Below are positions 33,405 through 33,907 of a stretch of DNA of 64,000 bases, one piece after another. The DNA is from Escherichia coli (GTDB taxonomy: Bacteria > Pseudomonadota > Gammaproteobacteria > Enterobacterales > Enterobacteriaceae), in the NCBI RefSeq assembly GCF_044647545.1, contig NZ_CP172818.1, one strand, 5' to 3'. Each line of letters starts with the position of its first letter. Within the stretch, counting starts at the first letter, position 1. The translations under genes and the position numbers were made by a program. The notes beneath the pieces were generated by a model. The model had not been told where the DNA came from. It did not search any database and saw only the letters and a program-made list of their open reading frames with translations.

Positions 33405-33907
33405 TTATTCGATGTTAGACTCGATAAACCACAGGAATTTATCCAGGTCGCGAGACGCGGCGGTCAGGATATCTGCGGTGTCGTCATCTTTCGCTTCGCC
33501 AATCGCTTTGCGTACGTCATTAGCGACGATTGCGTAACGGTCAGCCAGCTCTTTCAGGTGATCCTGAACGTTGTGGATGTCCAGCGGGTAACTTTTCAGC
33601 GGAGTTTTGCTGTTAATAACTTGAGTGGTCCCCAGAGCTACACCGCCCAGCTGCACTGCACGTTCTGCCATGGTATCCAGATGATCGATCAGTGCAGTGC
33701 GGAAGCCATCCAGCATTTCATGTACGGCAATGAAGTTAGCGCCGCGCATGTTCCAGTGCGCTTGTTTGGTAATCAAAGAAAGATCAATAAACTGGATAAC
33801 CTGGCGATTCAGCAACTCTACTGTTGCTTTTTCTCGCTGTCAGAGACATCGTTGCGGGTATAAAGCAGATTGGTCGCTTTTGATTTAACTAATTTAGCGG
33901 TACTCAT
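33405..33907 (-). pseudogene. dps: DNA protection during starvation protein Dps, interrupted by a 1-nt deletion in a poly-A run
   Basis: N-terminus [27 protein letters not shown] is followed by an in-frame stop; the remaining 136 aa ([11 protein letters not shown]...FIESNIE) continue in the adjacent frame; locus is 503 nt instead of 504. Confidence 0.8.

What the first reader, a model, noticed from the sequence alone, without database searches (positions are those of the whole stretch)
33405..33907. dps reading frame broken by a 1-nt deletion in a homopolymer at codon 26/27
The Dps N-terminus runs [27 protein letters not shown], then hits a stop; the rest of the protein (from LNRQVIQ to the C-terminus) continues in the adjacent frame. 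The break coincides with a run of five A residues (T5 on the plus strand at 33828-33832) where intact dps is expected to have six. This is either a genuine loss-of-function allele of a major stationary-phase nucleoid protein or a homopolymer sequencing error; the sequence cannot distinguish them. If real, it predicts reduced oxidative-stress and starvation tolerance.
Basis: partly seen in the sequence, partly recalled or inferred. Interest (0 to 1): 0.65.

Follow-up and report, generated by a model that had tools for sequence, protein, structure and literature searches.

The report
Frameshifted dps, probably an assembly error
The stress-protection gene dps in this E. coli window is broken by one missing A in a run of six. 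The break is more likely a sequencing or assembly error than a real loss of the gene, and it is an ordinary finding in either case.

Summary
The frame reads MSTAK...SEKKQQ and stops at 33820-33818. The other 140 codons (ATVELL...NIE) are intact in the adjacent frame.

The window is an ST648-type E. coli chromosome segment that is absent from the 5,426 complete RefSeq genomes searched. Over 42.5 kb it differs from the ST648 consensus by one substitution and five small deletions. None of the four deletions other than dps turned up in any genome searched. It also has a 3.3-kb stretch with raw-long-read-like noise and a garbled REP element. The assembly therefore carries deletion-type errors.

The same A5 allele is in 6 of 5,413 complete genomes, where PGAP marks it as a frameshifted pseudogene, and in two GenBank-only assemblies. 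These span several unrelated lineages, and most have other homopolymer or motif deletions nearby.

The promoter and the rest of the gene are unchanged.

My estimates:
- Assembly artefact: about 0.7.
- Real null allele, possibly shared with ST648 dog strain CUVET20-PYO4: about 0.25.
- Programmed frameshifting: no support.

Only reads can settle it. Interest is low.

The parts
33405..33907 (-). dps, with its reading frame interrupted. The promoter, ribosome-binding region and all other codons are identical to the intact ST648 allele.
   Evidence: NCBIfam NF006975 (Dps equivalog) scores 309 bits on the repaired protein against a cut-off of 114. PGAP annotates the identical allele as 'frameshifted' in NZ_CP115376.1.
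33828..33832 (-). A5 run (T5 on the plus strand) where intact dps has A6 (codons Lys26-Lys27). This is the site of the 1-nt deletion.
   Evidence: Of 5,413 genomes, 5,407 do not match the A5 query exactly and 6 do.
33818..33907 (-). N-terminal reading frame. It gives 27 native residues, then Gln-Gln, then TAG at 33820-33818.
33405..33827 (-). Adjacent frame carrying Dps residues 28-167 (ATVELL...NIE) and the native stop, with no further lesion.
33813..33815 (-). TTG (native Leu32), 2 nt after the premature stop. It is the first possible start of the 136-aa ORF that gene callers report. Re-initiation here is only a possibility and has no evident Shine-Dalgarno sequence.
   Evidence: Gene callers call the same 136-aa ORF in AP027446.1 and AP027450.1.
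33811..33828 (+). A 6-bp hairpin (AGCAAC-TCTACT-GTTGCT) directly abutting the T run on the plus strand. Three of the window's four other private deletions sit in the same kind of context.

Best explanation
The missing A is most likely an error of a long-read-based or imperfectly polished assembly, not a mutation in the bacterium. The organism would then carry a normal 167-codon dps. This gene encodes the ferritin-like dodecamer that binds DNA and sequesters and oxidises iron in stationary phase.

**Shown:** the assembly contains several deletion-type errors, and this exact shortening recurs in unrelated assemblies that have many errors.

**Inferred:** this particular base is one of those errors.
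For: 1. **Deletion-dominated differences from the clone consensus.** The window matches the ST648 consensus over 25 kb, as do many other genomes, except for deletions. Against FDAARGOS_497 it has 1 substitution and 5 small deletions in 42.5 kb. Two of the other four deletions were checked directly and no genome shares them. In the 25-kb ranking no genome scored above the plain ST648 consensus. A ratio of 5 indels to 1 substitution is not what natural divergence gives.
2. **Patches of sequence that are evidently wrong.**
   - 42554-45840 is about 92% identical to every genome that has this operon. It has 65 deletions, 37 insertions and 127 strand-asymmetric substitutions, sits next to a missing 1.9 kb, and its flanks are identical to the consensus.
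   - A REP element at 52396-52461 has lost about 25 scattered bases.
3. **Shared sequence context.** Four of the five isolated deletions, including the one in dps, lie 0-4 nt from a stable hairpin. That points to a context-dependent error.
4. **Recurrence in error-rich assemblies.** The identical A5 allele is in 6 of 5,413 complete genomes from several lineages and in two GenBank-only assemblies.
   - APEC37 and UID2309220007 each have 3 further frameshifted genes within 40 kb, all but one at homopolymers.
   - A1.S1.18 has one more.
   - AP027446 and AP027450 shorten about 15 homopolymers in 6.4 kb.
   - CUVET20-PYO4 differs from the ST648 consensus by three 1-nt C deletions and no substitution in 13 kb.
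5. **No secondary decay.** The promoter region and the other 166 codons are identical to the intact allele.
Against: - The window's homopolymer accuracy is otherwise good. 56 of 57 A/T6 runs are correct, so this is not blanket compression.
- The one A6 run that is wrong is the same one that is wrong in CUVET20-PYO4. That strain belongs to the same ST648 clone and was assembled from Illumina plus R10.4 reads with Unicycler. This fits a real allele inherited by two related isolates.
- Four of the five isolated deletions are intergenic, as selection on real mutations would produce. Their hairpin context offers another reason for that.
- Real dps disruptions do exist in nature: two short-read assemblies have an IS1-type insertion in the gene.
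- No reads were available.
Confidence: 0.7

Rival explanations
1. This is a genuine loss-of-function allele. Replication slippage in the A6 tract removed one A, so translation ends after 29 residues and the cell makes no functional Dps. The allele is recent, because nothing else has decayed. It may be inherited within a canine ST648 O1:H6 subclone that includes CUVET20-PYO4.
For: - The only genome identical over the 801-nt dps region is the ST648 strain CUVET20-PYO4, a hybrid Illumina plus ONT assembly.
- About 2% of the collection is ST648-like (116 genomes at >=99% identity). A chance co-occurrence of this rare allele in the same clone is therefore roughly a 1-in-10 event.
- 56 of 57 other A/T6 runs in the window are correct.
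- The two other O1:H6 ST648 strains of that study are absent from the searchable collection and could be the window's source.
- Natural dps disruption by an IS element is seen in short-read assemblies.
Against: - CUVET20-PYO4 itself shows a deletions-only error signature: 3 frameshifted core genes in 13 kb with no substitution, plus ybiR. Its dps call is therefore weak corroboration.
- The window shares none of the three private variants of CUVET20-PYO4.
- The allele recurs in unrelated, error-rich assemblies.
- The window has other private deletions and two noisy patches.
Confidence: 0.25
2. This is a real A5 allele that is leaky or switchable. The deletion creates GAG AAA AAG. A -1 slip of tRNA-Lys from AAG to AAA would read on into GCA ACA GTA and restore exactly the wild-type Dps sequence. 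Recurrent A6/A5 changes would then tune Dps levels in the manner of a contingency tract.
For: - The sequence after the deletion contains the A_AAG tetramer. This is the most shift-prone -1 tetramer in E. coli when a stimulator is present (PMC4066793).
- The -1 frame gives the native protein.
- The allele is seen in several lineages.
Against: - Without a stimulator such tetramers are barely above background, about 0.15% against 0.11%.
- The heptamer is not canonical (G_AAA_AAG).
- The 82 nt downstream fold no better than shuffled sequence (z = 0.19).
- 5,407 of 5,413 genomes lack the exact A5 allele.
- A6 is short for a phase-variable tract, and the recurrences track assembly quality.
Confidence: 0.03

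Closest known systems
E. coli dps (Dps/PexB; NCBIfam NF006975; structures 1DPS, 1F30)
   Same: Same gene at the same locus, between rhtA and glnH. The repaired product is 167 aa and identical to the Dps of intact ST648 strains. It matches the equivalog model end to end and the solved E. coli Dps chains over residues 1-167.
   Different: One A is missing in codons 26-27, so the annotated frame ends after 29 residues.
PGAP 'frameshifted' dps pseudogenes in RefSeq (CUVET20-PYO4, C25, APEC37, A1.S1.18, A1.S1.126, UID2309220007)
   Same: Identical A6-to-A5 change over the same 63 nt. All are annotated as pseudogenes.
   Different: Apart from CUVET20-PYO4, they lie in other lineages, about 2% diverged. 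The window is not any of these records.
Residual indel errors of long-read (nanopore-type) assemblies at homopolymers and particular motifs
   Same: The differences from the clone consensus are dominated by deletions, sit in homopolymer and hairpin contexts, include patches of raw-read-like noise, and recur at the same site in unrelated assemblies.
   Different: The sequencing platform of the window's source is unknown. Most homopolymers in the window are correct.
dnaX / IS-type -1 programmed frameshift sites (A_AAA_AAG)
   Same: The AAA-AAG lysine codons offer the same A-site slip, and the -1 frame restores the protein.
   Different: There is no canonical heptamer, no downstream structure and no upstream Shine-Dalgarno-like element at the right spacing. 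The frameshifted arrangement is not conserved.

Membership tests
Dps (NCBIfam NF006975 equivalog; ferritin-like PF00210) | Full-length match to the equivalog model above the curated cut-off | tested here: met
   The repaired 167-aa protein scores 309 bits against a cut-off of 114, covering residues 1-167. The 136-aa ORF scores 267 bits over model positions 32-167.
Dps (functional gene) | One uninterrupted reading frame of 167 codons | tested here: not met
   The frame is broken at 33828-33832, with a stop at 33820-33818.
Dps (functional gene) | Conserved locus: rhtA - dps - glnHPQ, with the upstream regulatory region intact | tested here: met
   Gene order is as in the relatives. The window has no other difference from FDAARGOS_497 between 30737 and 42548.
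Long-read assembly indel artefact | Differences from near-identical genomes are mostly small deletions, at homopolymers or specific contexts | tested here: met
   5 deletions against 1 substitution in 42.5 kb. Two are at homopolymers, and four of the five are next to hairpins.
Long-read assembly indel artefact | The same error recurs in unrelated assemblies that show other such errors | tested here: met
Long-read assembly indel artefact | Reads, especially short reads, contradict the consensus base count | not testable with these tools
   No read data are accessible. The source assembly could not be identified.
Genuine frameshift pseudogene | The lesion is inherited by related isolates sequenced independently | tested here: inconclusive
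   The lesion is shared with the ST648 strain CUVET20-PYO4. That assembly has its own deletion errors, and how closely it is related to the window's source is unknown.
Genuine frameshift pseudogene | Secondary decay: further lesions or loss of the promoter | tested here: not met
   There is no other difference in the gene or its flanks. A very recent event would also show none.
Programmed -1 ribosomal frameshift site | Slippery X_XXZ_ZZN heptamer or Z_ZZN tetramer in the zero frame | tested here: inconclusive
   The A_AAG tetramer is present. The heptamer G_AAA_AAG is not canonical (rules from PMC4066793).
Programmed -1 ribosomal frameshift site | Stimulatory downstream structure or upstream Shine-Dalgarno-like element | tested here: not met
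   The downstream 82 nt fold at -13.7 kcal/mol, z = 0.19 against shuffles.
Programmed -1 ribosomal frameshift site | The two-frame arrangement is conserved among relatives | tested here: not met
   Only 6 of 5,413 genomes carry the exact A5 allele.
Phase-variable homopolymer (contingency) locus | A long tract with frequent length polymorphism in both directions among strains | tested here: not met
   The tract is A6. The A5 form is in 6 of 5,413 genomes and tracks error-rich assemblies. Longer forms were not searched for.

The most novel reading that the evidence does not exclude
The A6 tract in dps is a real, recurrent mutational hot-spot. Independent A6-to-A5 events in at least five E. coli lineages, including a canine ST648 clone, would switch off the major stationary-phase nucleoid protein. 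A trickle of wild-type Dps would still be made by -1 slippage on the newly created AAA-AAG. The tract would then act as a crude contingency switch, not as a dead gene.
Probability: 0.04. Interest if true: 0.5.

Novelty: already known. Interest (0 to 1): 0.1.

Why it matters
If it is an artefact, it matters only as a quality flag. This assembly, and several RefSeq genomes with the same dps 'pseudogene', carry indel errors that inflate pseudogene counts and cgMLST distances.

If it is real, it would be a naturally occurring dps-null extraintestinal pathogenic E. coli. That is mildly interesting for stress tolerance in infection isolates, but it is an ordinary kind of mutation in a well-understood gene.

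Tried and rejected
- **Window = CUVET20-PYO4.** Rejected. The dps region is identical over 801 nt, but the window lacks that strain's two substitutions and its ybiR deletion, and it has private differences of its own.
- **Finding the source assembly.** I looked up exact proteins from ORFs in the noisy stretch and found nothing on record. The exact 136-aa Dps fragment returned six contigs. Two had the A5 allele in heavily compressed assemblies, two had an intact A6 behind scaffold gaps, and two were IS-interrupted.
- **The diverged 42554-45840 block as an import from another lineage.** Rejected. No genome matches it better than 92%, the indel-to-substitution ratio is about 1:1, and the substitutions are strand-asymmetric.
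- **Programmed frameshifting.** No stimulator and no conservation.
- **Blanket homopolymer compression in the window.** Rejected, because 56 of 57 A/T6 runs are intact.
- **Literature search for the strain name.** This gave nothing. A second search found the study describing the CUVET strains and their sequencing method.

Full report
**What is in the sequence**

On the minus strand an ATG at 33907 opens the dps frame. It reads [27 protein letters not shown], then Gln-Gln, then TAG at 33820-33818. The adjacent frame, translated from 33827 to 33405, gives [12 protein letters not shown]...FIESNIE and the native stop.

Adding one A restores a 167-aa protein identical to the Dps of an intact close relative. 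That protein matches the NCBIfam Dps equivalog end to end, at 309 bits against a cut-off of 114. It also matches the solved E. coli Dps structures over residues 1-167. Two details need correcting. Two out-of-frame codons come before the stop, and the second frame is open from Ala28, not only from Leu33.

**Where the window comes from**

The gene order is uvrB-moa-...-glnQPH-dps-rhtA-ompX-...-gsi. The window is not present in the collection of 5,426 complete RefSeq E. coli genomes. The best 25-kb matches are ST648-type genomes.

Only one record is identical over the 801 nt around dps. It is NZ_CP115376.1, strain CUVET20-PYO4, an ST648 O1:H6 isolate from canine pyometra in Bangkok. PGAP already annotates its dps as a 'frameshifted' pseudogene. 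The window is not that record. It lacks that strain's two private substitutions and its 1-nt deletion in ybiR, and it has private differences of its own.

**Quality of the window's sequence**

I compared the window with FDAARGOS_497, which represents the ST648 consensus; the 25 listed ST648-type hits all gave the same alignment score over 25 kb. Over 42.5 kb the window shows one substitution and five small deletions:

| Window position | Change |
|---|---|
| 943 | TG lost |
| 5862 | T8 to T7 |
| 22799 | C lost |
| 30736 | AGA lost |
| 33828 | dps, A6 to A5 |

Two of the non-dps deletions were checked directly against all genomes, and none shares them. In the 25-kb ranking no genome scored above the plain ST648 consensus.

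Two larger patches are evidently wrong.
- **After 42548.** 1.9 kb is missing, and the next 3.3 kb (42554-45840) is only about 92% identical to every genome that has this GH31/MFS/LacI operon. It has 65 deletions, 37 insertions and 127 substitutions. The substitutions are strongly strand-asymmetric. No long ORF is left, yet the flanks match the consensus.
- **REP element at 52396-52461.** About 25 scattered bases are lost.

An indel-to-substitution ratio near or above 1, with sharp boundaries, is what noisy long-read sequence looks like. It is not what divergence or recombination looks like.

Four of the five isolated deletions, including the dps one, sit 0-4 nt from a stable hairpin. This suggests a context-dependent error. 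It may also explain why four of them are intergenic. On the other side, homopolymers are mostly right, with 56 of 57 A/T6 runs intact.

**The same allele elsewhere**

A 63-nt exact query finds A5 in 6 of 5,413 genomes: CUVET20-PYO4, C25, APEC37, A1.S1.18, A1.S1.126 and UID2309220007. All are annotated as frameshifted. The five other than CUVET20-PYO4 are about 2% diverged from ST648.

- APEC37 also shortens homopolymers in rhtA, ybiO and rlmF within 40 kb.
- UID2309220007 has further frameshifts in ybiR, rhtA and dinG, two of them shortened homopolymers.
- A1.S1.18 also breaks ybiO.
- C25 and APEC37 are different lineages from the same submission batch.
- Two GenBank-only chromosomes, AP027446 and AP027450, carry A5 among about 15 homopolymer compressions in 6.4 kb.
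- CUVET20-PYO4 was assembled with Unicycler from NextSeq and R10.4 reads (PMC11116460). Even so, it differs from the ST648 consensus in a 13-kb core stretch by three 1-nt C deletions in CGGCCG/CCCGG contexts and no substitution. These break yeaV, yeaY and yoaC. Its ybiR deletion is of the same kind.

The recurrence of the A5 allele therefore follows assembly quality. The one same-clone assembly that shares it is not clean evidence for a real mutation.

**Weighing the explanations**

I put an artefact at about 0.7. The reasons are:
- the deletion-dominated, private differences from the consensus;
- the noisy patches;
- the shared hairpin context;
- the recurrence in error-rich assemblies;
- the complete absence of secondary decay in dps.

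I put a real null allele at about 0.25. The one wrong A6 run is the same in the window and in CUVET20-PYO4. ST648-like genomes are only about 2% of the collection, so a chance coincidence is roughly a 1-in-10 event. The two other O1:H6 ST648 strains of the same study, CP115326 and CP121673, are missing from the collection and may include the window's source. Real dps disruption also occurs in nature: two short-read assemblies end in an IS1-type terminus joined to dps at the equivalent of 33818.

If the allele is real, the mechanism is simple. Slippage in the A tract leads to termination after 29 residues and no Dps. The expected result is weaker protection against peroxide and long starvation. 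That prediction rests on established knowledge of dps mutants and was not tested here.

**A more exotic reading**

The deletion creates GAG AAA AAG. A -1 slip on AAA-AAG would restore the wild-type protein exactly. However:
- A_AAG without a stimulator is barely above background in E. coli (PMC4066793);
- the heptamer is not canonical;
- the downstream sequence folds no better than shuffles (z = 0.19);
- the arrangement is not conserved.

I give this about 0.03.

**Verdict**

The evidence leans clearly towards an assembly error. Either way it is an ordinary, already-annotated kind of lesion in a well-known gene. Only read-level data or resequencing can settle it.

Noticed in passing
window 42549-45840: About 1.9 kb of the GH31 glycosidase gene is missing. 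The following 3.3 kb (rest of GH31, the MFS transporter, the LacI regulator) is about 92% identical to every genome that has this operon. It has 65 deletions, 37 insertions and 127 strand-asymmetric substitutions, and no ORF longer than 155 aa. The flanks match the ST648 consensus. It looks like an unpolished long-read patch, not a natural pseudogene.
   Followed up: yes
window 52396-52461: The REP element between fsa and moeB has lost about 25 scattered single bases, mostly G or C, relative to all close relatives.
   Followed up: partly
window 943, 5862, 22799, 30736: Four private small deletions in intergenic DNA: TG, T8 to T7, C, and AGA. Three of them lie 0-4 nt from a strong terminator-type hairpin, as does the dps deletion. 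For 22799 and 30736, no genome in the collection shares the deletion.
   Followed up: yes
window 6043: The only substitution (G to A) against the ST648 consensus in the first 42.5 kb. It lies near the start of ybhM.
   Followed up: no
L018 4797, 11919, 15977 (NZ_CP115376.1 1004797, 1011919, 1015977); L003 39755: CUVET20-PYO4 differs from other ST648 genomes by single C deletions in CGGCCG/CCCGG/CCGGCC contexts. These frameshift yeaV, yeaY, yoaC and ybiR, with no substitutions nearby. This is a motif-specific error signature in a RefSeq 'complete' hybrid assembly.
   Followed up: yes
L014 1-33 and L015 1-31 (Logan ERR13499487, SRR32418376): Two short-read contigs begin with an IS1-type terminal repeat joined to dps at the equivalent of window 33818. 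This is a genuine IS disruption of dps in natural isolates, at almost the same codon as the A tract.
   Followed up: partly
L010, L011 (AP027446.1, AP027450.1): These two GenBank chromosomes shorten nearly every run of 6 or more identical bases to 5 in the dps neighbourhood. This splits opgE, rhtA, glnH and glnQ as well as dps.
   Followed up: yes
accessions CP115326 and CP121673 (not held): The two other O1:H6 ST648 dog isolates of the CUVET study, CUVET17-1010 and CUVET19-1637, are absent from the searchable E. coli collection. Either could be the source of the window.
   Followed up: partly
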